Position numbers and translations under genes: made by a program. Shown in pieces: positions 13,006 through 42,573 of a DNA stretch of 64,000 nucleotides. The notes under the pieces are model-generated. The model was given only the letters and a program-made list of their open reading frames with translations, was not told where the DNA came from and did not search any database. Position 1 is the first letter of the stretch. Each line of letters opens with the position of its first letter. Origin of the DNA: an uncultured Candidatus Saccharibacteria bacterium (lineage in GTDB: Bacteria > Patescibacteriota > Minisyncoccia > Phycocordibacterales > UBA2100); NCBI GenBank assembly GCA_964362175.1, contig CAYIDD010000002.1, positions 45,939 to 109,938 of the forward strand, written 5' to 3'.

Positions 13006-14217
13006 ATGGTGGCATCCGGTATGCGAGCTCAATTCGTGCGTGAACCAAGTCTGGCGAACCCGCTCCGTTCTGTTCGTGCACTCGAGCTCCACCGTTTCCT
13101 CTTGCGCGCGGCGCTGGCGGGGGTGAACATATTCGCATGGATGTTCGTCTTTCAGTATTTCTACCTCGTCGAAGCGGACATCGCGCACGCACTTGCGCGC
13201 ACCGCGCTCCTGTACGCGCTCTCACAGACCATCACATGCCTCGTCACTCCGTATGCCGCGCGGCGTCTTCGCGCGGGCGCGCGCAGCGCACTGATCCTGG
13301 GAACGCTCCTCGCGGCGGTCGCGTTCTTAACACTGAGGACGATGTTTGATGGATTCTGGCTTTCCGCATTCGCCACTGATGCGGTGCTAGGCTTCGCGCT
13401 CGCGATCGGACTGTACCGCGCGTTGTATTGGGTCCCGTATTCGGTCGAAGCCGCGGCGCATTTTCAAAAAAAACCATTGCTCATCGCGGAATTCCTGATC
13501 GCGTGCGCCCCTCTCGTCGGCGGCCTCTTCATCGCGGGGATCGGTATGGGGTTTGTGTGGATCCTGTACATCGGCGCTGCAATCATCGCGCTTTCTGCAA
13601 TTCCGGCATTTTTCATCCGCAATGTCCACGAAATATTTTCGTGGGGGTATCGCGAAACATTTTTACAGCTATTTGAATTTGAGAATCGGAGGATCGTGAC
13701 GGGGGGATTTTTGGAAGGCATTTCCGGTGCGGCAACGCTCCTCTTTTGGCCGCTTGCGGTATTTTTGATCGTTGATCAGTCATTCGGCATGCTCGGTATC
13801 ATCCTCACGCTCACGTTCTGGGTAGCGATATGGATGCGGAGGTTCATTCGCAGGATGCTGCGACGTCTCCGTCTTACCGGATCGTCAGCCGCGAATATCG
13901 TTTTTGCAATTACGCCGTGGCTGTTCCGTCTCGCCGTCGCCACCCCCCTCGGCATTATTTTTGTCGACTCATTTTTCTACACAACGACGCCGCGGCGCAT
14001 GGGGATCGATCCGCTTGCTTTTGAACAGGTTGCCGATGGAGGATCATACGTCGACGAGTTCACGGCCCTAAAGGAAGTTGCTCAAGCGCTTGGCAGGATC
14101 TCACTCTGTATTTTGGGGGCAACCGCCGTGCTTCTGGTTTCGGTTCCGACCGCGCTCGCGATGGTATTTTTTATCACGGCGCTTTCCGCAGCTGCGGGGG
14201 CGTATCGGTCGCGTTAG
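13006..14217 (+). CDS. Polytopic membrane protein, possibly an MFS-type transporter
   Basis: 403 aa with about 10-12 predicted TM helices and no diagnostic motif seen. Confidence 0.5.
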   Translation: MVASGMRAQFVREPSLANPLRSVRALELHRFLLRAALAGVNIFAWMFVFQYFYLVEADIAHALARTALLYALSQTITCLVTPYAARRLRAGARSALILGTLLAAVAFLTLRTMFDGFWLSAFATDAVLGFALAIGLYRALYWVPYSVEAAAHFQKKPLLIAEFLIACAPLVGGLFIAGIGMGFVWILYIGAAIIALSAIPAFFIRNVHEIFSWGYRETFLQLFEFENRRIVTGGFLEGISGAATLLFWPLAVFLIVDQSFGMLGIILTLTFWVAIWMRRFIRRMLRRLRLTGSSAANIVFAITPWLFRLAVATPLGIIFVDSFFYTTTPRRMGIDPLAFEQVADGGSYVDEFTALKEVAQALGRISLCILGATAVLLVSVPTALAMVFFITALSAAAGAYRSR

Positions 14218-16937: not shown

Positions 16938-17651
16938 ATGCCCATCTCACCCCTGCTTTTTGTCCTGACCTCATCGATTGTCGTCGCGGGCTTCGCGGGT
17001 CTGGTCGTTTTTCTCACGTCATTCCGAAAGGGAAGTATTTTCGCCAATCCGTTCTCACGTGACTGGGGCTTGGGCCTTCTCCTTTCATCTCTGATCAGAA
17101 TACCGACCGCCTCGGCGGTCGCAGGTATGCCGTTGAGTTCGACCATTGATGGCATGGCTCCGTATTATGCCGTGGGATCGGTCGCTTTGATCGGAGCACA
17201 CGCGCTGTTTTTTCGCGGGACCGTGCGATTTTTTACAGACAGCAGGTTTTGGATCAATTATTTCCCCCTTCTTTCCTTCCTATGTGTCAATGCGGTCGTT
17301 TTCTACTCTCTACAAGTTCTTCATCTGGGGCCCGGTTGGATAATTGTGGAAGTGGCAACGGTGGTCTCGCTGAATATCCTGTTCCTCGTTGGCGCCAACT
17401 ACAAACTCATTTGCGGGGAATGTTCCCACAGAGAGCGGGTCGGTTCCTGGCTCTTCGTCATCGGCTGGGTCATGTTTCTCCTTGCGCACACGTATATGAC
17501 ATTCATGCTCCACCGATATCCGACCGATTTTTGGTTCTTTGCTATAACATCCTTCCCGACAATTTTCATTTATAGCGGCTATACGATCTCGTACCTCTTA
17601 CTGCTGTCGGGTTTTATTCTCAACTGTACCTATAAGCGAAAAAGCACGTGA
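16938..17651 (+). CDS. Hypothetical polytopic membrane protein
   Basis: 237 aa, about 7 TM helices and no family recognised. Confidence 0.5.
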   Translation: MPISPLLFVLTSSIVVAGFAGLVVFLTSFRKGSIFANPFSRDWGLGLLLSSLIRIPTASAVAGMPLSSTIDGMAPYYAVGSVALIGAHALFFRGTVRFFTDSRFWINYFPLLSFLCVNAVVFYSLQVLHLGPGWIIVEVATVVSLNILFLVGANYKLICGECSHRERVGSWLFVIGWVMFLLAHTYMTFMLHRYPTDFWFFAITSFPTIFIYSGYTISYLLLLSGFILNCTYKRKST

Positions 17652-19749: not shown

Positions 19750-19960
19750 ATCCTATCATTCGTTCGGTTTACGAAATATGGGGCGCATCGAAAGTATCGG
19801 CGTATAACAGTGCTGATAAGGTGTTTACACAGTGGGGATATGCAACTAGAATGCCAAAGCCCCGTATGCCTTGACGCCACCCGTTAATTTTGATACAACG
19901 TAAAACACAAGAACAGAAATAGTCAAATAAGCCCGAAAAACCCTTGTATACAGCCAAATT

Positions 19961-20983
19961 ATGCTTTCTTTCTCACCGAAATCAATCGCAAAAGACCTCC
20001 TTGCAGGGCTTCCTGAGCGTTCCCGCCGAGTACTTACCGACCGTTTCGGTCTTGCCGGAAAGGGTGAACGACGTACGCTGGATGCCATCGGGCAGGAATA
20101 CGGCATCACACGAGAGCGTATCCGACAGATCGAGAACCACGGGATCTCAAGCGTGCGTGATTCTGATGCCTACGGCTCTCTCGCGCAGAATTGGGAGCAT
20201 CTCAAAGCGGCGATCGCAACGCTCGGCGGGGTCTTGGCTGAAGAGACTATTCTTCAGGAGCTTTCCAAAAACGATATGGACCGTAATCACGTTCTCTTCC
20301 TTCTCACGGTGGGGCATCATTTCAACGACAGGCGCGAGGACAGTGATTACAAAGCACGATGGCATGTCGACGAGCAGCTTGCCGAGCAGGTGGAGGCGGC
20401 TCTCGGGAATCTCTACGCTTCTCTCGAACCCAACAAACTCACTCCCGAAGAGGAATTTCTTGAGCTTTTCGCAAAATACCTGAAACAGGAAGGGGTGAAA
20501 AATCGACCGCCGGAGGTTTTGCCCCGCTGGCTCCTTATTTCGAAACGGATCGGTCGCAATCCGCTCGGTGAATGGGGGAGACAGGATTCCCCGCATGTGC
20601 GTATCAAGAACACGCGTGATTTCGCATATCTTACGCTCAAGCGCCACGGTTCTCCGATGCACTTCACGGAGGTCGCGAAAAATATCGAAAAATTGTTCGG
20701 CCGCAAGACACACCCCGCGACCACGCACAATGAGCTCATTAAAGACGGTCGTTTTGTGCTCGTCGGCCGCGGTCTCTATGCGCTCAAGGAGTGGGGGTAT
20801 CAACCCGGTGTCGTGCGCGATGTCATCAGCGGTATTCTTGATCGGGAGGGGCCCCTGACACGCGAAGAGATCATCGAGCGCGTGAAGCGTGAGCGCTACG
20901 TGAAAGATGCGACCATCGCGGTCAATCTTCAGAACGGCATGTTCACGCGACTGCCGGACGGTAGGTACGCGCTTGCGAAATAG
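19961..20983 (+). CDS. DNA-binding protein with an N-terminal sigma-70 region 4-like HTH and a C-terminal HARE-HTH (RpoE delta-like) domain
   Basis: N-terminus RVLTDRFGL...RTLDAIGQEYGITRERIRQIENHGI resembles sigma region 4. C-terminus HFTEVAKNIEKLFG...LIKDGRFVLVGRGLYALKEWGY resembles HARE-HTH. Confidence 0.55.
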   Translation: MLSFSPKSIAKDLLAGLPERSRRVLTDRFGLAGKGERRTLDAIGQEYGITRERIRQIENHGISSVRDSDAYGSLAQNWEHLKAAIATLGGVLAEETILQELSKNDMDRNHVLFLLTVGHHFNDRREDSDYKARWHVDEQLAEQVEAALGNLYASLEPNKLTPEEEFLELFAKYLKQEGVKNRPPEVLPRWLLISKRIGRNPLGEWGRQDSPHVRIKNTRDFAYLTLKRHGSPMHFTEVAKNIEKLFGRKTHPATTHNELIKDGRFVLVGRGLYALKEWGYQPGVVRDVISGILDREGPLTREEIIERVKRERYVKDATIAVNLQNGMFTRLPDGRYALAK

Positions 20984-21055
20984 AGTTCGGGTTTCATCCC
21001 TGCGGGATTGTTAATAAGCGGCTTTTTCAGTGTCGCGAGATGGTAGAATCGCCAC

Positions 21056-22483
21056 ATGGTCTTCATAGGCGACTATGAGCAACAGGGGGTGATCACCACC
21101 GGTGATGTACGGGGCATTATCTCGGGGTTTCTTCATCTTGATCTACACAAGATAATCGACGGAACGGTGGGAAACTACTGGGGCATTTCGCGCGCGCTCC
21201 AACTCAGCATTCTCTTTTGGGGATTTATGGGTATCCTGTGGATCCAGATTCCCCACCTACCACTTTTTGCGGCTCAATGGCTTCTCGGAACAGCGCCTAT
21301 TTGGATGCCTATAGTGACGCTGGTCACAACATGGAAGATCTGGCTGTGGTATTCGCGCAGCATGTATCTCTTTAAGCGGGATTCGATGCTTCTCGAGGTG
21401 AAGATGCCGCGGGACATTACGCGTTCGCCGCGGGCGATGGAAAATGCGCTCTCGAAGCTTTGGACCGACTCGGGTGAGACGACATTCCTGAACCGCGTGT
21501 GGCAAGGTCAGTGCAGACCGTATTTTTCTCTGGAAATCGCTTCGTTCGGCGGCGAGATCCATTTCTATATATGGACGTGGCGTAACTGGAGACAGGTCGT
21601 GGAGTCAATGATGTATGCATACTATCCGGAGGTCGAGCTTGTGGAGGCCGAAGATTATGCCTCGAAGTTCAAATTCGATCCGGACACGCAGGAATGTTTT
21701 CCCACCGATTGGCGCTACGAGCCGCGCAACGACGCGTATCCCATACGCACCTACGTCGAATTCGAGCTCGATAAGGACCCCAAGGAGGAGTACAAGATCG
21801 ATCCTCTCGCAGAGGTGCTTGAGCGCATGAGTGGTCTCAGGCCAGATGAACAGATGTGGATACAGATAATCATCACGATGTGCAGGGATACTCGCGCAAA
21901 AAAAGGCGGGCATTGGTGGGAAACGGAAAATCGTTACACCGCATTGATCAAAGAAGAGATCGATGTGCTTCGCAAAGAGACGACCTCTGCCGATCCGGGT
22001 GATCGATCCGCACCTGATGCATGGAAGTCAATGGCTCGCGTCCCGATGCATCGCTACACGGAATTGATCAAGGCTATGGACCGCAACATGGGCAAGCACC
22101 CCTTCAACGTCGGCATGCGCGGCGTGTATATCTCGGATGCGAAGAATTTTGCGGGGCCGGGCTATACCGGCATGCGCTGGATATGGCGCCCTGTGGGAAA
22201 TCCGCAATATATGAACCAATTGCGTCCGCGTCGCTGGGGCAACCCATTCGACTGGCCGTGGCAGGATTATAAAGACATCCGGTGGCGCCTGATGCAGCGC
22301 AGATTTTTCGATTGTTATCGCAGGCGCTCCCATTTTTATTCTCCGTGGATCATGCCGCACAATATGATGAGCACCGAGATCATCGCGACACTGTGGCATC
22401 CGCCAAGCGCCGCGATCGGCGTTCCCGGCCTTGAGCGTATTCCCGCAAAGAAGGCGGAGCCGCCATCGAATTTGCCGAAATAA
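21056..22483 (+). CDS. Hypothetical Trp-rich membrane-anchored protein (475 aa)
   Basis: Two N-terminal TM helices, then about 370 aa that are W/R/Y-rich. No Walker or other known motif. Own TAGAAT -10 box 6 nt upstream. Confidence 0.5.
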   Translation: MVFIGDYEQQGVITTGDVRGIISGFLHLDLHKIIDGTVGNYWGISRALQLSILFWGFMGILWIQIPHLPLFAAQWLLGTAPIWMPIVTLVTTWKIWLWYSRSMYLFKRDSMLLEVKMPRDITRSPRAMENALSKLWTDSGETTFLNRVWQGQCRPYFSLEIASFGGEIHFYIWTWRNWRQVVESMMYAYYPEVELVEAEDYASKFKFDPDTQECFPTDWRYEPRNDAYPIRTYVEFELDKDPKEEYKIDPLAEVLERMSGLRPDEQMWIQIIITMCRDTRAKKGGHWWETENRYTALIKEEIDVLRKETTSADPGDRSAPDAWKSMARVPMHRYTELIKAMDRNMGKHPFNVGMRGVYISDAKNFAGPGYTGMRWIWRPVGNPQYMNQLRPRRWGNPFDWPWQDYKDIRWRLMQRRFFDCYRRRSHFYSPWIMPHNMMSTEIIATLWHPPSAAIGVPGLERIPAKKAEPPSNLPK

Positions 22484-22508: not shown

Positions 22509-23543
22509 ATGCCGCATCTGAATTCGATTTTGCAAAAAGCGTTTGATAGGGGTCATGTCCTGCTCGCGCGGCTTTCAACGCATTGGAAAGAGCACACGAA
22601 CAGGAGAACCGTGGCCATCATTCTTTCTGTCGGGGTATGTGCGACATCCGCGTATCTCTTCGGCATACGCCCGCCGGACAACTTTCCCGTGAATTCGCTC
22701 GTGTCAGTTCCGGAAGGATCCTCCCTGCAGGAAGTGGCGCGGAGGCTTGAGGTCGACGGGGTCGTACGTTCCGACGCGGTCTTTCGCGTACTTATCAGCG
22801 TGATGGGGAATGCACGGAACGTGCGCGCCGGTGACTACCTCTTTAAACAGCCTCGAGATGCGTTTGGGGTCGCCTACGCGCTTTCTACGGGCGCGTTCGG
22901 TCTTGAGCCGATCAGAATACGTATTTCTGAAGGCATGATGACAAAAGAAATGGCCGCCCTGCTCGACAGACAATTTGAACGTTTCGACGCGAAGAACTTC
23001 CTCGCAGAAGCGCAGCCCCAGGAAGGATATCTCTTTCCTGACACGTATTTCTTTATGCCCAATGCGACCGAGCGAACGATCATTCAGGCAATGCGCCAAA
23101 ATTTCGACCAACACCTTTCAGAGATCGAGCTGCGCCTCGCGAGCTCAACACATTCTCTCAAAGACATCGTTATTATGGCCTCCCTCATTGAGCGTGAGGC
23201 GCGCGACCCCAAGGACCGCCGTATCATTGCTGGCGTACTGTGGAATCGGCTCGCGCGGAAGATGCCACTACAGGTGGATGTGACGTTCCTCTATACGATA
23301 GGGAAAGATACATTCCAGCTGACGACGGTAGATCTCATTTCCGATTCCCCCTACAACACCTACAAGAACAAAGGACTCCCACCGACCCCCATCGGCAGCC
23401 CCTCGCTCGATTCACTGCTCGCCGCGGCAGAACCTACGAAAAATAACTACCTGTTTTACCTTGCGGACCACAATGGCGTGACGTATTTCAGTAGAACGTA
23501 CGAGGAGCATTTGCGGAAGAAACGACTGTATCTGGGGACGTAA
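22509..23543 (+). CDS. mltG: Endolytic murein transglycosylase MltG (YceG family)
   Basis: N-terminal TM, then a YceG-like domain (DIVIMASLIEREARDPKDRRIIAGVLWNRL; LQVDVTFLY). Confidence 0.8.
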   Translation: MPHLNSILQKAFDRGHVLLARLSTHWKEHTNRRTVAIILSVGVCATSAYLFGIRPPDNFPVNSLVSVPEGSSLQEVARRLEVDGVVRSDAVFRVLISVMGNARNVRAGDYLFKQPRDAFGVAYALSTGAFGLEPIRIRISEGMMTKEMAALLDRQFERFDAKNFLAEAQPQEGYLFPDTYFFMPNATERTIIQAMRQNFDQHLSEIELRLASSTHSLKDIVIMASLIEREARDPKDRRIIAGVLWNRLARKMPLQVDVTFLYTIGKDTFQLTTVDLISDSPYNTYKNKGLPPTPIGSPSLDSLLAAAEPTKNNYLFYLADHNGVTYFSRTYEEHLRKKRLYLGT

Positions 23544-24616: not shown

Positions 24617-24659
24617 ATAGCTCGACATACGGGCGTTCGCACAGGCTACAATGGAAGCG

Positions 24660-25058
24660 ATGCTATTGCGCATGATGTGGTTTACCGCGATCTCAGTGGT
24701 AATTTCTTATGGGATATATCTTTTGGTAGGGAACACGCTCTACGCACGAGCGTCGGGGGCCTACGAGCCCATTCTCGTTCGGGATGTCATCGGCCCCGGC
24801 TCGCACTATTTATCCGGCATGATCATGGTGCCGACGCCGTGCGATGAGTTGTATGTGCGGACACACGCTGTTTCGAGCACCACTTTTCTCCTTTCGTTCA
24901 AGACATGGCGGGAGCCCTCGGTTAGTTGCACGGAAGATCGGACGCCGCGACCATTTCACGCGACCTTGTTCGGGCCCGCCACGGGGGTGAACTTTGGCGC
25001 GACTCTCGATGGGGTCGGCCAGCCCATCGTGGTACTGCCTGCCGTACCCATCGAGTGA
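24660..25058 (+). CDS. Hypothetical membrane-anchored protein
   Basis: About 132 aa with an N-terminal TM helix. A TACAAT -10 box overlaps the first track ATG, so the second ATG at 24660 is taken as the start. Confidence 0.4.
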   Translation: MLLRMMWFTAISVVISYGIYLLVGNTLYARASGAYEPILVRDVIGPGSHYLSGMIMVPTPCDELYVRTHAVSSTTFLLSFKTWREPSVSCTEDRTPRPFHATLFGPATGVNFGATLDGVGQPIVVLPAVPIE

Positions 25059-25064
25059 TCTTTC

Positions 25065-25967
25065 ATGTCTCACATTTCTTCGCACGCGCAGTTACAGCCG
25101 ACACACAAGGCATCGTCTCACGGAAGAGTGCGAATGCCCGGCACGCCCAGCATACTTATTACCAAGGCGGATGGAGAGCAGGAAGCATTCGATCCCGCCA
25201 AGCTTGAGCATTCTTTGCAGCTGGCGGGCGCTTCCAGCACCATGCGCGCTCGTGTGCTCGCGCATGTCATGCGCGAATTGCGTCCCGGCATGATGACGGA
25301 AGACATCTACCGCCATGCGTTCGACATTTTACGTCGCGAGGAAGTGACGCCGGTCGCAGCCCGCTATTCCATCAAACGCGCGGTTTTTGCACTTGGCCCT
25401 TCCGGATTTCCTTTCGAGCAATTTTTGGCGGAAGTATTGCGCGCCCATGGATGGAAGGCGCAGACAGGTGTCGCGCTCATGGGACGCTGCGCTCCGCACG
25501 AAGTGGATGTGTTCGCCGAGAAGGGCGACAAGCGGATCGGTATTGAGGCGAAATTCCATAACGATGCGGGTGGCAAAACGGACATCAAGGATGCGTTGTA
25601 TGTGCACGCGCGATACGAGGATCTCAAGAAGACGCCACTCGCCTCTTCACGTGTAGACGAGGGATGGCTTGTCACGAATACACGTTTTACGCGCAACGCC
25701 ATCCGCTACGCGCAGTGTGCGGGACTCACGCTTCTCGGATGGGATTACCCCCGAACCCGAGGGCTACTCACGCTTATCGAGGAGGCGCGAGTGCATCCGC
25801 TGACCTGTCTCACAACGCTCACGGAAAATGAAAAACAGAGGCTCTTGGAACAAAAGATCGTTTTGTGTAAGCACGTCCAAACTCCGCACATTCTTCGCGA
25901 ATTCGGCGTGAAGCCTGACCACATCCCCAAAGTGTTGGAAGAGGCGAGACAGTTATGCGGTATCTGA
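25065..25967 (+). CDS. ATP-cone domain fused to an Mrr-like restriction endonuclease catalytic domain
   Basis: N-terminal ILITKADGEQEAFDPAKLEHSLQLAG (ATP-cone). Central HEVDVFAEKGDKRIGIEAKFHN (D-x(n)-E-x-K Mrr_cat core). The start may be the downstream ATG at about 25134. Confidence 0.6.
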   Translation: MSHISSHAQLQPTHKASSHGRVRMPGTPSILITKADGEQEAFDPAKLEHSLQLAGASSTMRARVLAHVMRELRPGMMTEDIYRHAFDILRREEVTPVAARYSIKRAVFALGPSGFPFEQFLAEVLRAHGWKAQTGVALMGRCAPHEVDVFAEKGDKRIGIEAKFHNDAGGKTDIKDALYVHARYEDLKKTPLASSRVDEGWLVTNTRFTRNAIRYAQCAGLTLLGWDYPRTRGLLTLIEEARVHPLTCLTTLTENEKQRLLEQKIVLCKHVQTPHILREFGVKPDHIPKVLEEARQLCGI

Positions 25968-35195: not shown

Positions 35196-36362
35196 ATGTT
35201 CGGAACACATCTCGGGCGCGGGCGCGGGAAGATAGTCGCTGTCGCCGATATTGGAAGCGGAAGCGCGGGTGTCGCAATACTCGGCATTCATCCCGGCGAG
35301 CCGGTATCGGTCCTTGCTGCCGAACGCGCCATCCTTTCCATGGAGGATCGTGGGGAAGAGGCAACAACGACGGGGGTCGCCGATCAACTCGTAAAAGCGG
35401 GAGAAGCCGTCAGAAAAAAATTCACTAATCTGGGCAAGGATGCACATCCCATACATGAACTCTACGTCATCATACGGGCGCCGTGGAGCCATTCCGAGAC
35501 GAAACGTGTCTCGACGACATTCAAAGAGCAAATCACGGTTACCGATCATATGATCGGCGAGCTTGCCGAGCGAGCGCTCGCCGAGGTGAGGGAGCTCGAT
35601 CGTGGGAACTTTCTGGAAGCCAAGGTGATACGGGTCGAGCTCAACGGGTACTCGTGTGCGAAACCCGTGGGCAAGCACGCAACGGAGATCTCGGCATTTG
35701 TGCTGATAAGCGGTTGGCACTCGACCATCCGCGCCAAAATAGAGGCGTCTTTGCAAAAGGTGTTTCCCCACCTTTCCCCCGCATTCCGCTCTTCAGTATG
35801 GGCGGCGATCGCGGTGTTGCGGGAGGGAATGTCGCAAGAATATGATTATCTCATCGTCGACATGTCGAGCGAGGGGACAGCATTCGTGGCGATCCGCGAT
35901 GGTGTCGCCACCGAACACATGCTTATTCAGGAGGGGGTGCGCACCATACTGAAACGTGTCTCCGGATCGGGAATGCCTGAAGAGGCTCTGAACCTCATCC
36001 GCATGCTTTCGTCGGATCAATGCTCGAGCGCCGCGTGCGAGGCTACCCGCGAGTCGCTCGCTCGTGCGGAGCCGGAACTTGTACGGGTCTTCGGGGAAGC
36101 GCTCGGCACATGCGCATCGGAACAACGATTACCAAACACGCTCATTCTATTCGTTCATCCCGATGTTGCCACGTGGCTTTCGCGTTTCTTTTCACGTATC
36201 GACTTTTCGCAATTCACGAAAACGGCGCAACCGTTCCAGGTGAGGATCGTCGGCACTACTGACCTTTCGACATGGGTGGCACCGTCGGGCGGCATGGTAT
36301 TGGATCCGGGACTCGCGCTTGGAAGCGCACTTGTCAACATCGAGAAGCGGAGGGGGCAATGA
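35196..36362 (+). CDS. Actin-like (ASKHA-superfamily) ATPase, FtsA/PilM/Ppx-like
   Basis: Phosphate-1 VAVADIGSGSAGVAILGI and phosphate-2 LIVDMSSEGTAFVAI motifs, 388 aa. Exact family unresolved. Confidence 0.5.
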   Translation: MFGTHLGRGRGKIVAVADIGSGSAGVAILGIHPGEPVSVLAAERAILSMEDRGEEATTTGVADQLVKAGEAVRKKFTNLGKDAHPIHELYVIIRAPWSHSETKRVSTTFKEQITVTDHMIGELAERALAEVRELDRGNFLEAKVIRVELNGYSCAKPVGKHATEISAFVLISGWHSTIRAKIEASLQKVFPHLSPAFRSSVWAAIAVLREGMSQEYDYLIVDMSSEGTAFVAIRDGVATEHMLIQEGVRTILKRVSGSGMPEEALNLIRMLSSDQCSSAACEATRESLARAEPELVRVFGEALGTCASEQRLPNTLILFVHPDVATWLSRFFSRIDFSQFTKTAQPFQVRIVGTTDLSTWVAPSGGMVLDPGLALGSALVNIEKRRGQ

Positions 36363-36383: not shown

Positions 36384-37736
36384 ATGGCTAAGGACTATTT
36401 TCAAGACATTATGCCACCGTCCCACGACCCCGAAGAGGCGCGGGAGATCCCGATCCGCCACAGCGACGAGGATGAGATCGAGGTACAGACAGAGCTCGTT
36501 CGCGGTATACGCAATATCTCATCCCCCGCTCGAATGCGTCCGGCCCCTCGTCCTGTTCAGGTGCCGGTCGGAGATGAACGCGAGATCCACCGACCCTCTC
36601 GTCTCTGGATCTGGGCCGTGGCGGCAGTTCTGGCGTTGGTCCTCTCTGTCTTTGCTCTCCTCATGTTCCGCTCAACGAGCGTGACCATTACGCCCAAATC
36701 ACGTCTCACATCCTTTACCGATACGATCCTTTACAATGCGTATCCTGCCGGTGCGGCGGACGGGTCGCTCCCATACACGGTTCAGAGTTTTGATATAGAG
36801 GATTCGGAAGTTGTTCCTTCCCAGGGGACGGTTCATGTTGAGAGAAAGGCTTCGGGAAGCATCACGGTATTCAATGAGCATTCCAGCGCGGTCGTGCGTC
36901 TGATCAAAAATACCCGCTTCGAGACGCCTGAGGGCCTCATTTTCCGGACCCCTGCGGATATCGTCGTACCAGGAAAGACGAGCGCCGGGCCGGGGACCGT
37001 GAACGTGACGGTTGTCGCAGATCAGGTGGGGGAAAAGTACAACATCGGGCCTGTTGCGCGCTTTAATCTGCCGGGGCTCAAATCGGGGGAAATGTATACG
37101 AAGGTTTACGCAAAATCGAACACTGCCATGTCGGGGGGATTCGCGGGTGAGGAGCCGGGTACAGCGCCCGGAGCACTCAACGCCGCTATCGCAGCGGTGC
37201 GTGGTCGGCTGGAATCCAACGCCCGTGAATCCGTACGCACGCTTATCACTGCGGACTCCGTCGCGTTCCCTGAGATCGTCCGGATCACCTATCAGTCGCT
37301 GCCGAACACACAGGAAGCCGGGCCCGGTGTACGGATCCATGAAAAAGCGCACGTCGAGGTTCCTATATTACCGGCGGATGTCTTTGCCGCGATCATCGCT
37401 CAATCCACGGCTGCGGATACGGGCAATTCGTCCATAAAACTCATTCCAGGCAAGGATTTTGGGGCTCGTTTGGCGACCACGGCCCCCATCTCCCTTGGGG
37501 CTGATCCACTTACATTCGTCTTGATCGGCCAGGCCCGTTTGGTGTGGAACGTCGATGAAAAAGCGCTCGCAGAGGCTCTTGCGGGCCATGACAGCGACGC
37601 GTTCCAGACCATCGTCAACGGTTTCTCGGGCGTTCAGGAAGCACATGCAAGAATAGAACCATTTTGGAAAAAAGCATTCCCCAAAGACGCGGCGGATATC
37701 AAAATAACGATCAAGGAATTCGAGATGGAGCCGTAG
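36384..37736 (+). CDS. Bitopic membrane protein with a large extracytoplasmic domain (450 aa), probably in an operon with the upstream actin-like ATPase
   Basis: About 75-aa acidic cytoplasmic N-terminus, single TM (LWIWAVAAVLALVLSVFALLMF), then a 350-aa beta-rich domain. Starts 21 nt after the previous gene. Confidence 0.5.
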   Translation: MAKDYFQDIMPPSHDPEEAREIPIRHSDEDEIEVQTELVRGIRNISSPARMRPAPRPVQVPVGDEREIHRPSRLWIWAVAAVLALVLSVFALLMFRSTSVTITPKSRLTSFTDTILYNAYPAGAADGSLPYTVQSFDIEDSEVVPSQGTVHVERKASGSITVFNEHSSAVVRLIKNTRFETPEGLIFRTPADIVVPGKTSAGPGTVNVTVVADQVGEKYNIGPVARFNLPGLKSGEMYTKVYAKSNTAMSGGFAGEEPGTAPGALNAAIAAVRGRLESNARESVRTLITADSVAFPEIVRITYQSLPNTQEAGPGVRIHEKAHVEVPILPADVFAAIIAQSTAADTGNSSIKLIPGKDFGARLATTAPISLGADPLTFVLIGQARLVWNVDEKALAEALAGHDSDAFQTIVNGFSGVQEAHARIEPFWKKAFPKDAADIKITIKEFEMEP

Positions 37737-41081: not shown

Positions 41082-41438
41082 ATGAAGACACAATCGACAT
41101 ATCAGATAGACGCAGCGGGAAAGACGCTCGGCCGCGTCGCTTCAGAGGCGGCAAAAGCACTCATGGGTAAAATGCGCGCCGACTACACTCCGAACATCGA
41201 TTCGAACGTGAAGGTATCGATCGAAAACGCGGGCAAATTGTATATCCGTGAACACAAACGCACCCAAAAAATATATACGACGTATTCCGGCCACCCCGGA
41301 GGTCTGAAGCGTGAAAGTCTTGCTTCGCTGAGCGCGCGCAAGGGTCGTGGAGAAGCTATTCGTCGCGCCGTGGCCCGAATGCTGCCGCGCAACACCATGC
41401 ACACCCCACGTTTGAAAAATTTAATCATCACCGAATAA
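41082..41438 (+). CDS. rplM: 50S ribosomal protein L13
   Basis: YQIDAAGKTLGRVASEAAKALMGK. Confidence 0.9.
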   Translation: MKTQSTYQIDAAGKTLGRVASEAAKALMGKMRADYTPNIDSNVKVSIENAGKLYIREHKRTQKIYTTYSGHPGGLKRESLASLSARKGRGEAIRRAVARMLPRNTMHTPRLKNLIITE

Positions 41439-41440
41439 TT

Positions 41441-41836
<396 letters not shown>

Positions 41837-41860
41837 AAAAAGCAAACTGCTTTGCTTTTT
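41837..41860 (+). terminator. Rho-independent terminator after rpsI
   Basis: AAAAAGCAAA-ctgc-TTTGCTTTTT, 10-bp stem with a T-run immediately after the stop codon. Confidence 0.75.
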
Positions 41861-42009
41861 CTTGACGCTTCGACGGCCGGAGCGATGTTTCGCCAGTGGG
41901 CGAAACCGCGAGGCGGGGTCGCGACCGAGCCGCGCTGGCGCGGCGAGAGTTGTGACGGAAGCGCTAGATTTCTTTTCTTGAAAGTCTGCGCGTGCTATAC
42001 TCGCCCGGC

Positions 42010-42573
42010 ATGAAGAAGGAGCATAACGGTGGGGCTCCTGAAGAGGAGCTCCCGGAAGTCGATTTTGAACCCGAGGAAGAAATGGGGGGTATTGTCGCTG
42101 CGCAGGCAAAACTAAAAAAGCTCAAAGTCGAGCTTGCGAAGGCGAAACAGGAGCGGCAGGAATACTTGGATGGCTGGCAGCGGTGTAAGGCCGACTCAAT
42201 AAACACACGGAAGGAGAGCTTCACGAATGCCGAACGCATGGGTGTGCGCGCGAAAGAGGCGCTCGTTGAGGAGATGATCCCCGTCCTGGATGGTTTTGAT
42301 ATGGCCGCCGGCTCACCGGCATGGGAATCGGTAGATGCGCAGTGGCGGAGCGGTATCGATCAGATACGAAATCAGCTTCTCGACGTACTTTCGCGCAACG
42401 GGGTTGAGCGATTTGGCAAGATCGGCGATGTTTTCGACCACGCAATGCACGAGGCGGTGGAAGAACGTGACGACATGGCGGGTAAGTCAGGCTCCATCGT
42501 GCGCATTTTGCGTTACGGATACAAAATGAACGGACGGATCGTGCGTCCGGCGCAAGTCATCATGAAAAAATAG
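42010..42573 (+). CDS. grpE: Nucleotide exchange factor GrpE
   Basis: Coiled-coil N-terminus and a conserved C-terminal beta domain (FDHAMHEAVEE...VRILRYGYKMNGRIVRPAQV). ATG at 42010; the track start at 41992 is a GTG overlapping the -10 box. Confidence 0.9.
   Translation: MKKEHNGGAPEEELPEVDFEPEEEMGGIVAAQAKLKKLKVELAKAKQERQEYLDGWQRCKADSINTRKESFTNAERMGVRAKEALVEEMIPVLDGFDMAAGSPAWESVDAQWRSGIDQIRNQLLDVLSRNGVERFGKIGDVFDHAMHEAVEERDDMAGKSGSIVRILRYGYKMNGRIVRPAQVIMKK

What the first reader, a model, noticed from the sequence alone, without database searches (positions are those of the whole stretch)
21056..22483. Trp-rich, membrane-anchored 475-aa protein of unknown family with its own promoter
Two N-terminal TM helices are followed by about 370 aa that are very rich in W, R and Y (for example WIWRPVGNPQYMNQLRPRRWGNPFDWPWQDYKDIRWRLMQRRFF). 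There is no nucleotide-binding or catalytic motif I can recognise. It sits between the HTH protein and mltG, so it is possibly cell-envelope related. This is a good candidate for a lineage-specific protein family.
Basis: partly seen in the sequence, partly recalled or inferred. Interest (0 to 1): 0.5.

Follow-up and report, generated by a model that had tools for sequence, protein, structure and literature searches.

The report
Motor-less secretion-ATPase N-domain next to mltG
This Trp-rich membrane protein is not an orphan: it is the complete front half of a type IV secretion "coupling protein" ATPase with the motor missing, and across a large group of ultra-small (CPR) bacteria it is always encoded directly upstream of the cell-wall-cutting enzyme MltG, so it is probably a membrane adaptor whose exact role is still untested.

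Summary
There is a 475-aa ORF at 21056-22483 (+) with a TM hairpin. It is 5.5% Trp against about 1.1% in the window's long ORFs, has no P-loop, and lies between a sigma70_r4/HARE-HTH gene and yceG/mltG. A conserved extended -10 sits 6 nt before the ATG.

The window protein stops one residue after the conserved PPxNLP linker, where the motor begins in relatives. It is under purifying selection. The sampled stand-alone proteins form one split, and the family carries a Trp-rich insertion.

In every one of 80 loci with enough downstream sequence, plus the divergent members checked, mltG follows immediately. It is distinct from the published "TrsD-like" T4SS component.

Most likely function (inferred): a non-catalytic membrane scaffold working with MltG.

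The parts
21041..21049 (+). Extended -10 promoter element TGGTAGAAT, 6 nt upstream of the ATG. This geometry implies a leaderless or near-leaderless transcript.
   Evidence: Sequence read. The same element and spacing occur in 60 of 80 related loci versus 9.1% of control ORFs.
21056..22483 (+). CDS of 475 aa (stop codon included): stand-alone DUF8128 protein, a motor-less N-terminal module of a T4CP-like ATPase.
21191..21340 (+). Membrane anchor, residues about 46-95, a two-helix hairpin. The following domain is predicted to be cytoplasmic.
   Evidence: Hydropathy and charge distribution. AlphaFold helices 46-64 and 68-106. The family HMM from position 45 onwards also matches the TM region of full-length ATPases.
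21356..22435 (+). DUF8128 alpha/beta domain, residues about 101-460, with a VirB4-N-domain-like fold.
22241..22291 (+). Trp-rich insertion specific to the stand-alone family, residues 396-412 (NPFDWPWQDYKDIRWRL).
   Evidence: It appears as a 17-column gap in the full-length family in the profile-profile alignment. The strict motif [FVM]D[YWF]P[WYHF]QD is present in 33 of 33 close members, 28 of 150 representatives and 0 of 120 full-length ATPases.
22370..22405 (+). Family signature STEIIATLWHPP, residues 439-450 (consensus TTEELATIxHxP).
   Evidence: Nearly invariant across the family. In full-length relatives the same motif (EELASIFHLP) lies 66-73 residues upstream of the Walker A.
22424..22480 (+). 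C-terminal tail PGLERIPAKKAEPPSNLPK, residues 457-475. It is predicted disordered but almost invariant, and is equivalent to the linker that precedes the motor domain in full-length relatives. The protein ends one residue after NLP.
   Evidence: pLDDT below 50 for residues 464-475. Column conservation. Side-by-side comparison with full-length sequences. 128 of 150 representatives end at P.NLP plus at most 3 residues.
19961..20983 (+). Upstream partner gene of the conserved triad: a 340-aa sigma-70 region 4 + HARE-HTH protein.
   Evidence: Pfam hits. Immediately upstream on the same strand in 78 of 86 loci, and in divergent L007 and L095.
22509..23543 (+). Downstream partner gene yceG/mltG (endolytic transglycosylase family). 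The probable ATG start is 25 nt after the DUF8128 stop, with no terminator between them.
   Evidence: Pfam YceG E 1.7e-77. Sequence read. No terminator-like site in the gap. Immediately downstream on the same strand in 80 of 86 loci; the other 6 end too soon after the gene for a downstream gene to be detected.

Best explanation
Identity (shown, about 0.95). The gene encodes a membrane-anchored, ATPase-less paralogue of the N-terminal module (Pfam DUF8128) of the VirD4/TrwB-type coupling-protein-like ATPases of Patescibacteria. It contains everything those ATPases have up to the linker PPxNLP: the membrane anchor, an alpha/beta domain with the VirB4 N-domain fold, and the EELAxxxHxP signature. 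It then stops where the P-loop motor would begin. It has also gained a Trp-rich insertion.

Expression (supported). It is transcribed from its own extended -10 promoter as a leaderless message. Most probably it is co-transcribed with mltG, which starts 25 nt downstream with no terminator between.

Mechanism (inferred, about 0.35). It is a non-catalytic scaffold or adaptor. The hairpin holds the domain at the cytoplasmic face of the membrane. There it keeps the protein-protein contacts that the N-module makes in the motor proteins, by analogy with the VirB4 N-domain, which docks on VirB3 and VirB8 at the base of the secretion channel. Through its membrane helices and/or the new Trp-rich surface it forms a complex with the single-pass MltG. 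In this way it would position or gate glycan-strand cleavage, for example where an envelope-spanning machine must pass the wall, or during wall synthesis. The conserved disordered tail would be a docking peptide for a partner.
For: Homology: the precomputed Pfam tag PF26449 is on the identical protein and on many members. 34 of 45 members hit phrog_5156, best E 1e-10. hhalign versus phage G gp156 gives 97.4% probability, E 1.3e-11. The family HMM hits 115 of 120 full-length T4CP-like proteins, median E 2.7e-31, covering HMM positions 45-445 of 445. Profile-profile comparison gives 100% probability, E 6e-53. The tail and signature motif are shared, and the protein ends at the domain boundary.

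Not a remnant: there are 70 invariant columns in A1. pN is far below pS. The stand-alone proteins form one split in 37 of 40 bootstraps. All of the best 150 representatives are 250-500 aa and lack a Walker A.

Link to MltG: mltG is adjacent on the same strand in 80 of 86 loci, and the other 6 end too soon after the gene for a downstream gene to be detected. The calculated distances range from -90 to 240 nt, most under 100 nt. The adjacency is kept in members with only 27-34% identity whose outer flanks differ.

Promoter.

Background: according to PMC12102498, T4CP-like genes occur in 2,918 of 3,035 Patescibacteria genomes, mostly away from virB4, and may have been exapted.
Against: No experiment or interaction prediction links the protein to MltG. 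Conserved adjacency in small, slowly rearranging genomes can overstate functional coupling. The flanking genes mnmA, dnaB and recR are also often conserved, although they are lost in the divergent loci whereas mltG is not.

The role assigned to the N-module rests on analogy with the VirB4 N-domain at 7% sequence identity. The tool did not show which TrwK residues were aligned. The assignment to the N-domain is deduced from the absence of any P-loop structure among the hits.

The retained linker motif could instead point to a partner ATPase acting in trans.

I could not verify that a full-length T4CP-like gene coexists in this particular genome. None is present in the 64-kb window.
Confidence: 0.5

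Rival explanations
1. Two-piece coupling protein. The N-module works in trans with a motor-only (N-terminally truncated) T4CP- or HerA-type ATPase encoded elsewhere in the genome. The conserved PPxNLP tail docks onto that motor. The adjacency to mltG is incidental or only regulatory.
For: The protein ends exactly at the module boundary and keeps the linker motif, which is nearly invariant although predicted disordered. At least one T4CP-like relative without a PF26449 tag exists (P0392).
Against: No ATPase-domain ORF lies near the gene in the window or in about 1.2 Mb of 86 related loci, and split genes usually stay adjacent. The stand-alone clade is old and diverse and has its own insertion, which suggests a new role rather than a simple split.
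Confidence: 0.2
2. Structural accessory of the patescibacterial type IV secretion system. A motor-less N-domain subunit joins the inner-membrane complex alongside VirB3/PrgI, VirB4 and VirB6, in the way TrsD is thought to relate to VirB4. Under this reading MltG serves as the system's wall-opening enzyme (a VirB1 analogue).
For: The fold matches the VirB4 N-domain, and also EccE of type VII secretion, which likewise has two TM helices plus a cytoplasmic domain. A full-length DUF8128 ATPase sits beside a PrgI/VirB4/M23 cluster in L092. T4SSs need a dedicated peptidoglycan hydrolase, and VirB1 homologues are rarely found near virB4 in Patescibacteria (PMC12102498).
Against: The gene is never next to T4SS genes in 86 loci plus the divergent members. 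The published T4SS cluster of Paceibacteria lies near dnaA/dnaN (PMC12102498). MltG is a near-universal housekeeping enzyme, not a secretion-specific one. The true TrsD-like gene of a patescibacterial cluster is a different small ORF.
Confidence: 0.15
3. Regulatory decoy. The motor-less module co-assembles with, or competes against, the full-length T4CP-like ATPase for its membrane docking site and tunes its activity.
For: It shares the full N-module, including the membrane anchor. Motor-less paralogues that modulate ring ATPases are known in other systems (general knowledge, not tested here).
Against: It does not explain the strict linkage to mltG or the gain of a conserved insertion. There is no evidence of co-regulation with a T4CP gene.
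Confidence: 0.08
4. Orphan, lineage-specific envelope protein unrelated to any known system, or a decaying remnant of a truncated ATPase gene.
For: There were no hits in the local Pfam, NCBIfam, PADLOC or PDB sequence searches.
Against: Homology to T4CP-like N-modules is unambiguous. The local Pfam copy evidently lacks the PF26449 model, because none of the precomputed hits reproduce. Strong purifying selection and hundreds of intact, same-length relatives exclude a pseudogene.
Confidence: 0.02

Closest known systems
Patescibacterial coupling-protein-like ATPases (DUF8128 + TrwB_AAD_bind + DUF87 + T4SS-DNA_transf + TraG-D_C). Sources annotate them as 'type IV secretion system DNA-binding domain-containing protein' or 'TraM recognition domain-containing protein'. 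An example is Berkelbacteria US94_C0010G0005 (P0322).
   Same: The whole window protein (anchor, DUF8128 domain, EELAxxxHxP signature, PPxNLP linker) aligns with their first ~390 residues: 100% probability, E 6e-53.
Bacillus phage G gp156 (phrog_5156)
   Same: Its N-terminal residues 43-319 are homologous to window residues 149-460, including the signature motif. It carries PF26449.
   Different: It is an 825-aa protein with a HerA/TraG-like ATPase region (Pfam hits weak, below the curated cut-offs). It is encoded beside a VirB4-type ATPase (gp155) and a TrbL/VirB6-like protein (gp153) in a jumbo phage.
N-terminal domain of VirB4 (TrwK of plasmid R388, PDB 7O42/7O41/8RTB)
   Different: Sequence identity is 7%. 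There is no hit to Pfam CagE_TrbE_VirB. VirB4 always carries its ATPase domain.
TrsD/TraD of staphylococcal plasmids pGO1/pSK41 (Pfam PF26593) and the 'TrsD-like' proteins next to virB4 in Patescibacteria
   Same: The concept is the same: a separately encoded, motor-less protein reported to be remotely related to the N-terminal part of a T4SS ATPase, with no assigned function (PMC12102498).
   Different: There is no sequence or profile similarity and no NCBIfam TrsD/TraD hit. TrsD is 227 aa, and its homologues in Patescibacteria are reported mostly next to virB4 (PMC12102498). In a patescibacterial T4SS cluster the TrsD profile finds a different 88-aa ORF, and the DUF8128 profile does not find it.
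EccE of mycobacterial ESX (type VII) secretion systems
   Different: The match is much weaker, with no sequence similarity and no ESX genes nearby.

Membership tests
Pfam DUF8128 (PF26449) | Significant match to the PF26449 model | tested here: met
   The precomputed PF26449.1 tag is on the identical protein P0001 and on many relatives. It is listed without a weak or faint mark on L003, L007, L009, L094 and L095 genes. It was not reproducible with the local hmmscan, which appears to lack this model, since gp156 and other tagged proteins also fail.
Pfam DUF8128 (PF26449) | Homology to other proteins carrying the domain | tested here: met
   hhalign gives 100% probability versus 39 PF26449-tagged ATPases and 97.4% versus gp156.
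Type IV coupling protein (VirD4/TrwB/TraG, T4CP) | P-loop nucleotide-binding domain (Walker A/B; Pfam T4SS-DNA_transf, TrwB_AAD_bind, TraG-D_C) | tested here: not met
   There is no Walker A and no Pfam or NCBIfam hit. An HMM of the motor part of the relatives finds nothing in the window. The protein ends before the motor.
Type IV coupling protein (VirD4/TrwB/TraG, T4CP) | N-terminal membrane anchor | tested here: met
   A two-helix hairpin at residues 46-95.
VirB4 family | N-terminal domain fold | tested here: met
VirB4 family | Sequence match to the VirB4 models (CagE_TrbE_VirB, P-loop_TraG) and a C-terminal ATPase | tested here: not met
   No hit. hhalign versus pGO1 TrsE found nothing.
TrsD/TraD (PF26593; NCBIfam TrsD/TraD family) | Sequence or profile similarity to TrsD | tested here: not met
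   NCBIfam scan gave 0 hits. hhalign of A1 and A3 versus TrsD and versus a 12-member TrsD alignment gave probability below 1%.
TrsD/TraD (PF26593; NCBIfam TrsD/TraD family) | Encoded next to virB4 within a T4SS cluster | tested here: not met
   No VirB4- or Trs-like ORF in the window or in 86 loci. In L092 the TrsD-like ORF is a different gene.
EccE (type VII secretion) | Sequence match to the EccE family and an ESX gene neighbourhood | tested here: not met
MltG-associated module (proposed here, not an established family) | Immediate same-strand adjacency to yceG/mltG | tested here: met
   80 of 86 loci, and the other 6 end too soon after the gene for a downstream gene to be detected. Divergent members also keep it.
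MltG-associated module (proposed here, not an established family) | Physical or functional interaction with MltG | not testable with these tools
   This needs multimer prediction, two-hybrid tests or co-purification.

The most novel reading that the evidence does not exclude
The HTH-DUF8128-mltG triad is a secretion-machine part that has been exapted for cell-wall control. Under this reading, a coupling-protein N-module that lost its motor became the cytoplasmic regulator or positioning factor of the glycan-strand terminase MltG in a large clade of ultra-small bacteria. This would be a new class of MltG regulator, and a documented case of a type IV secretion ATPase domain recruited to peptidoglycan metabolism.
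Probability: 0.25. Interest if true: 0.7.

Novelty: new variant of a known kind. Interest (0 to 1): 0.5.

Why it matters
Type IV secretion genes are among the few functions shown to be essential for the epibiotic life of Patescibacteria. Those genomes also carry thousands of 'orphan' coupling-protein-like ATPases of unknown role (PMC12102498).

This finding shows that the uncharacterised front half of those ATPases (DUF8128) has the VirB4 N-domain fold. It also shows that this front half exists as an independent, strongly conserved, motor-less protein that is always encoded next to mltG.

That gives a concrete, testable handle on two open points. The first is what the N-module of these ATPases binds. 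The second is how cell-wall cleavage is controlled or coupled to envelope machines in bacteria that lack most known wall-synthesis regulators.

It also improves annotation: hundreds of 'hypothetical proteins' can be described as motor-less T4CP N-module proteins.

Tried and rejected
1. Local Pfam, NCBIfam, PADLOC and PDB-sequence scans of the protein and of the A1 profile gave nothing usable. The local Pfam copy seems to lack PF26449.

2. tblastn of the window protein against phage and plasmid collections found no match. A divergent member (P0262) was needed to reach phage G.

3. A scan of IMG/VR viral contigs with A1 found no relatives.

4. TrsD hypothesis. It was prompted by PMC12102498 and tested with single sequences and with a TrsD family profile. 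All comparisons were negative, and the true TrsD-like ORF in L092 is a different gene. Rejected as membership, kept as an analogy.

5. My recollection that the EELAxxxHxP motif precedes the Walker A in T4SS ATPases was not found in pGO1 TrsE or TrsK. It was later confirmed in the patescibacterial T4CP-like proteins and in gp156.

6. I tried to look up Kaiserbacteria entries in Table S3 of PMC12102498, but the stored file is cut before those genomes.

7. R388 was not available in the plasmid collection, so the TrwK residue ranges could not be aligned by sequence.

8. The afdb50 fold library was unavailable.

9. A3 was too divergent for the search for related loci, so A1 was used instead.

10. 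There are no Rfam families in the region.

11. The first NJ runs timed out or contained NaN distances. Only the capped re-run is cited.

12. Pseudogene or truncation artefact: rejected.
Full report
**1. The observation**

It is the most Trp-rich long ORF in the window, at 5.5% W against 1.06% on average. Tyr is also enriched (4.6% against 2.8%), but Arg is not (8.0% against 7.8%). The quoted peptide is at residues 375-418.

One strongly hydrophobic helix (residues 47-65) and a second, Trp-rich helix (about 68-95) form a hairpin in the AlphaFold model, which has pLDDT 77 and pTM 0.75. The charge distribution puts the C-terminal ~370 residues in the cytoplasm. There is no Walker A or other nucleotide-binding motif.

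The neighbours are a sigma70_r4 + HARE-HTH protein upstream and YceG/MltG downstream. The rest of the window is ordinary chromosomal housekeeping: carAB, ddl, alaS, rpsD, rpoA, dnaKJ, several aminoacyl-tRNA synthetases, mraY, ftsW and murG. The identical protein is deposited as a hypothetical protein of a Patescibacteria MAG, and its closest named relatives are Kaiserbacteria.

**2. The promoter**

The generic promoter scan found nothing upstream of the gene. However, TGGTAGAAT, an extended -10, lies 6 nt before the ATG. The same element at the same distance is present in 60 of 80 distinct related loci, with a gap of exactly 6 nt in 40 of them. It is present at only 9.1% of control ORFs.

This supports the 'own promoter' claim and implies a leaderless or near-leaderless mRNA. 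mltG starts 25 nt after the stop codon, with no terminator-like structure between.

**3. It is a real, constrained gene of a large family**

A word-indexed search found 1,030 relatives. An exhaustive profile search found 1,938 clusters at 50% identity, 740 of them with E ≤ 1e-30. The best 150 are all 250-500 aa and matched to the end of the profile. The weaker tail of that list probably includes full-length ATPases, so the number of stand-alone clusters lies somewhere between 150 and 1,938 and I cannot say where.

Thirty-three members at 51-79% identity share 70 invariant columns. Against seven relatives, synonymous sites are saturated (pS 0.76-0.81) while pN is 0.14-0.18.

**4. What it is**

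Local Pfam, NCBIfam, PADLOC and PDB-sequence searches were empty. Even so, the protein collection carries a precomputed PF26449 (DUF8128) tag on the identical protein and on many relatives. The local Pfam copy evidently lacks that model.

Two independent lines then converged.

*Sequence.* 34 of 45 diverse members hit phrog_5156, an 824-position profile of unknown function, colinearly over its first ~290 positions. A divergent member led to Bacillus phage G gp156. The family profile aligns with gp156 at 97.4% probability (E 1.3e-11), mapping window residues 149-460 onto gp156 residues 43-319. gp156 continues into a HerA/TraG-type ATPase region (weak Pfam hits, below the curated cut-offs). It is flanked by a VirB4-type ATPase and a TrbL/VirB6-like protein.

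Searching with gp156 returned about 90 Patescibacteria proteins of 720-1000 aa with the architecture DUF8128 + TrwB_AAD_bind + DUF87 + T4SS-DNA_transf + TraG-D_C. Sources name them 'type IV secretion system DNA-binding domain-containing protein' or 'TraM recognition domain-containing protein'.

**5. Anatomy relative to the full-length relatives**

The near-invariant signature (consensus TTEELATIxHxP; window STEIIATLWHPP, residues 439-450) lies 66-73 residues upstream of the Walker A in the ATPases. The following tail, …SKK·EPPxNLP, is also shared.

The ATPases then continue with (T/S)EG··LG···RG····V·I···DR·RH·Y·IG·TGTGKS. The window protein ends …AKKAEPPSNLPK-stop. So the protein is the complete N-module, cut one residue after the linker motif. 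128 of 150 representatives end the same way, and none has a Walker A.

The family also has a 17-residue insertion (window residues 396-412, NPFDWPWQDYKDIRWRL) that the ATPases lack. The strict FDYPWQD-type motif is present in 33 of 33 close members, 28 of 150 representatives and 0 of 120 full-length proteins.

In a neighbour-joining analysis of N-modules, the stand-alone proteins form a single split in 37 of 40 bootstraps. The Berkelbacteria-type ATPases (P0318, P0320, P0322) are the nearest full-length relatives. This fits one ancient loss of the motor, or one ancient split.

**6. Genomic context**

I examined 86 loci, 80 of them from different GTDB species representatives: Kaiserbacteria, Paceibacterota, Parcubacteria and other Patescibacteria MAGs, some labelled Nomurabacteria or Saccharibacteria. 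yceG/mltG is immediately downstream on the same strand in 80 of them. The other six end too soon after the gene for a downstream gene to be detected.

The HTH gene is immediately upstream in 78. recR and dnaB lie further upstream in 61-65, and mnmA further downstream in 67.

All divergent members examined (27-34% identity) keep DUF8128→mltG, with gaps of 3-28 nt or a small overlap. Where enough upstream sequence is available, most also keep the HTH gene, although their outer flanks are different. So the triad behaves as a module.

No T4SS-like gene and no motor-domain ORF occurs in the window or in these loci. Three full-length DUF8128 ATPases were examined. One sits beside a PrgI/VirB4/M23 T4SS cluster, one next to dnaX, and one near gyrBA. 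None is in the HTH-X-mltG slot.

**7. Relation to published work**

Quinonero-Coronel et al. 2025 (PMC12102498) report 5,713 VirD4-like T4CP homologues in 2,918 of 3,035 Patescibacteria genomes. These are mostly far from virB4 and possibly exapted. The full-length relatives found here fit that description.

The same paper reports that the most abundant T4SS component is a homologue of TrsD, 'remotely homologous to the N-terminal portion of VirB4', with no known function, usually next to virB4.

I tested whether the window protein is that component, and it is not. TrsD proper is a narrow family with its own Pfam entry (PF26593). No profile similarity exists between it and the window protein's family. 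In a patescibacterial T4SS cluster the TrsD profile detects a separate 88-aa ORF beside virB4, and the DUF8128 profile does not detect it.

Neither that paper, a 2025 T4SS review (PMC12857230), nor the Southlakia Tn-seq paper (PMC10633639) mentions MltG/YceG in this connection. 'DUF8128' occurs in no paper of the library.

**8. Mechanism**

Shown: the protein is the motor-less N-module of a coupling-protein-like ATPase. It is membrane-anchored and conserved under selection. It has its own leaderless-type promoter and is invariably followed by mltG.

Inferred: it acts as a non-catalytic scaffold or adaptor at the cytoplasmic face of the membrane. In VirB4 the equivalent domain docks the ATPase on VirB3 and VirB8 at the base of the channel (established knowledge from the R388 structures). 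EccE, the second structural match, is likewise a non-catalytic membrane subunit of an FtsK/HerA-driven machine.

The strict linkage to mltG, the probable co-transcription and the gain of a conserved surface insertion make MltG the most likely partner. The complex could position or gate glycan-strand cleavage.

I put about 0.95 on the identity and about 0.35 on this mechanism. The rivals are:
- a two-piece coupling protein whose motor is encoded elsewhere (0.2);
- a T4SS accessory subunit, with MltG acting as a VirB1 analogue (0.15);
- a regulatory decoy of the full-length ATPase (0.08).

**9. Verdict**

It is a new variant of a known kind. It is a motor-less derivative of type IV coupling-protein-like ATPases, it already sits in Pfam as a DUF, and it has a conserved association with mltG that I could not find described anywhere in the searched literature.

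Interest is moderate (0.5). It gives a clear annotation and a testable hypothesis in a biologically topical group, but no function has been demonstrated.

Noticed in passing
Related loci L001-L089; window 21041-21049 and 19824-19852: About 9% of control ORFs of at least 150 aa in the Kaiserbacteria-type loci also have an extended -10 (TGnTAnnAT) 4-10 nt before an in-frame start codon. Leaderless transcription may therefore be common in these genomes. By contrast, the upstream HTH gene has a conventional TTTACA-17-TAGAAT promoter about 110 nt before its start.
   Followed up: partly
L090 (Bacillus phage G, JN638751 87772-93336): Jumbo phage G encodes a T4SS-like trio: gp153 (TrbL/VirB6-like), gp155 (VirB4-type P-loop_TraG ATPase) and gp156 (DUF8128 N-module + HerA/TraG-type ATPase). 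gp156 is annotated only as 'MsbA-like'.
   Followed up: partly
window 25065-25967 (+): An ATP-cone domain fused to an Mrr-type restriction-endonuclease fold (300 aa). It is conserved a few genes downstream in 59 of 86 related loci, which is an unusual housekeeping-like conservation for a nuclease-fold protein.
   Followed up: no
window 19961-20983 (+): A 340-aa protein combining sigma-70 region 4 with a HARE-HTH domain (the fold of the RNA polymerase delta subunit). It has no sigma region 2 and is conserved immediately upstream of the DUF8128 gene in 78 of 86 loci. It is possibly an RNA-polymerase-associated factor.
   Followed up: partly
L091 6519-6998 and L093 6651-6995: A small ORF without Pfam hits (159 aa and 114 aa) ends 2-5 nt before the full-length DUF8128-ATPase gene in two unrelated Patescibacteria. 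It may be a conserved small partner, perhaps VirB3-like.
   Followed up: no
L092 3264-5188 (-): In this patescibacterial T4SS cluster the VirB4 homologue is called as two abutting ORFs (387 aa and 231 aa, both P-loop_TraG). This is either a frameshift or assembly error, or a genuinely split virB4.
   Followed up: no
window 13006-14217, 16938-17651, 24651-25058, 35196-36362, 36384-37736, 41183-42109: Six further ORFs of 135-450 aa gave no Pfam hit at the thresholds used. The 135-aa ORF at 24651-25058 keeps its position in the related locus L001.
   Followed up: no
tool behaviour (versus 8, 19, 98): The local Pfam hmmscan library does not return PF26449 for any protein that carries the precomputed PF26449 tag. 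An empty local Pfam result is therefore not evidence that no Pfam family exists.
   Followed up: yes
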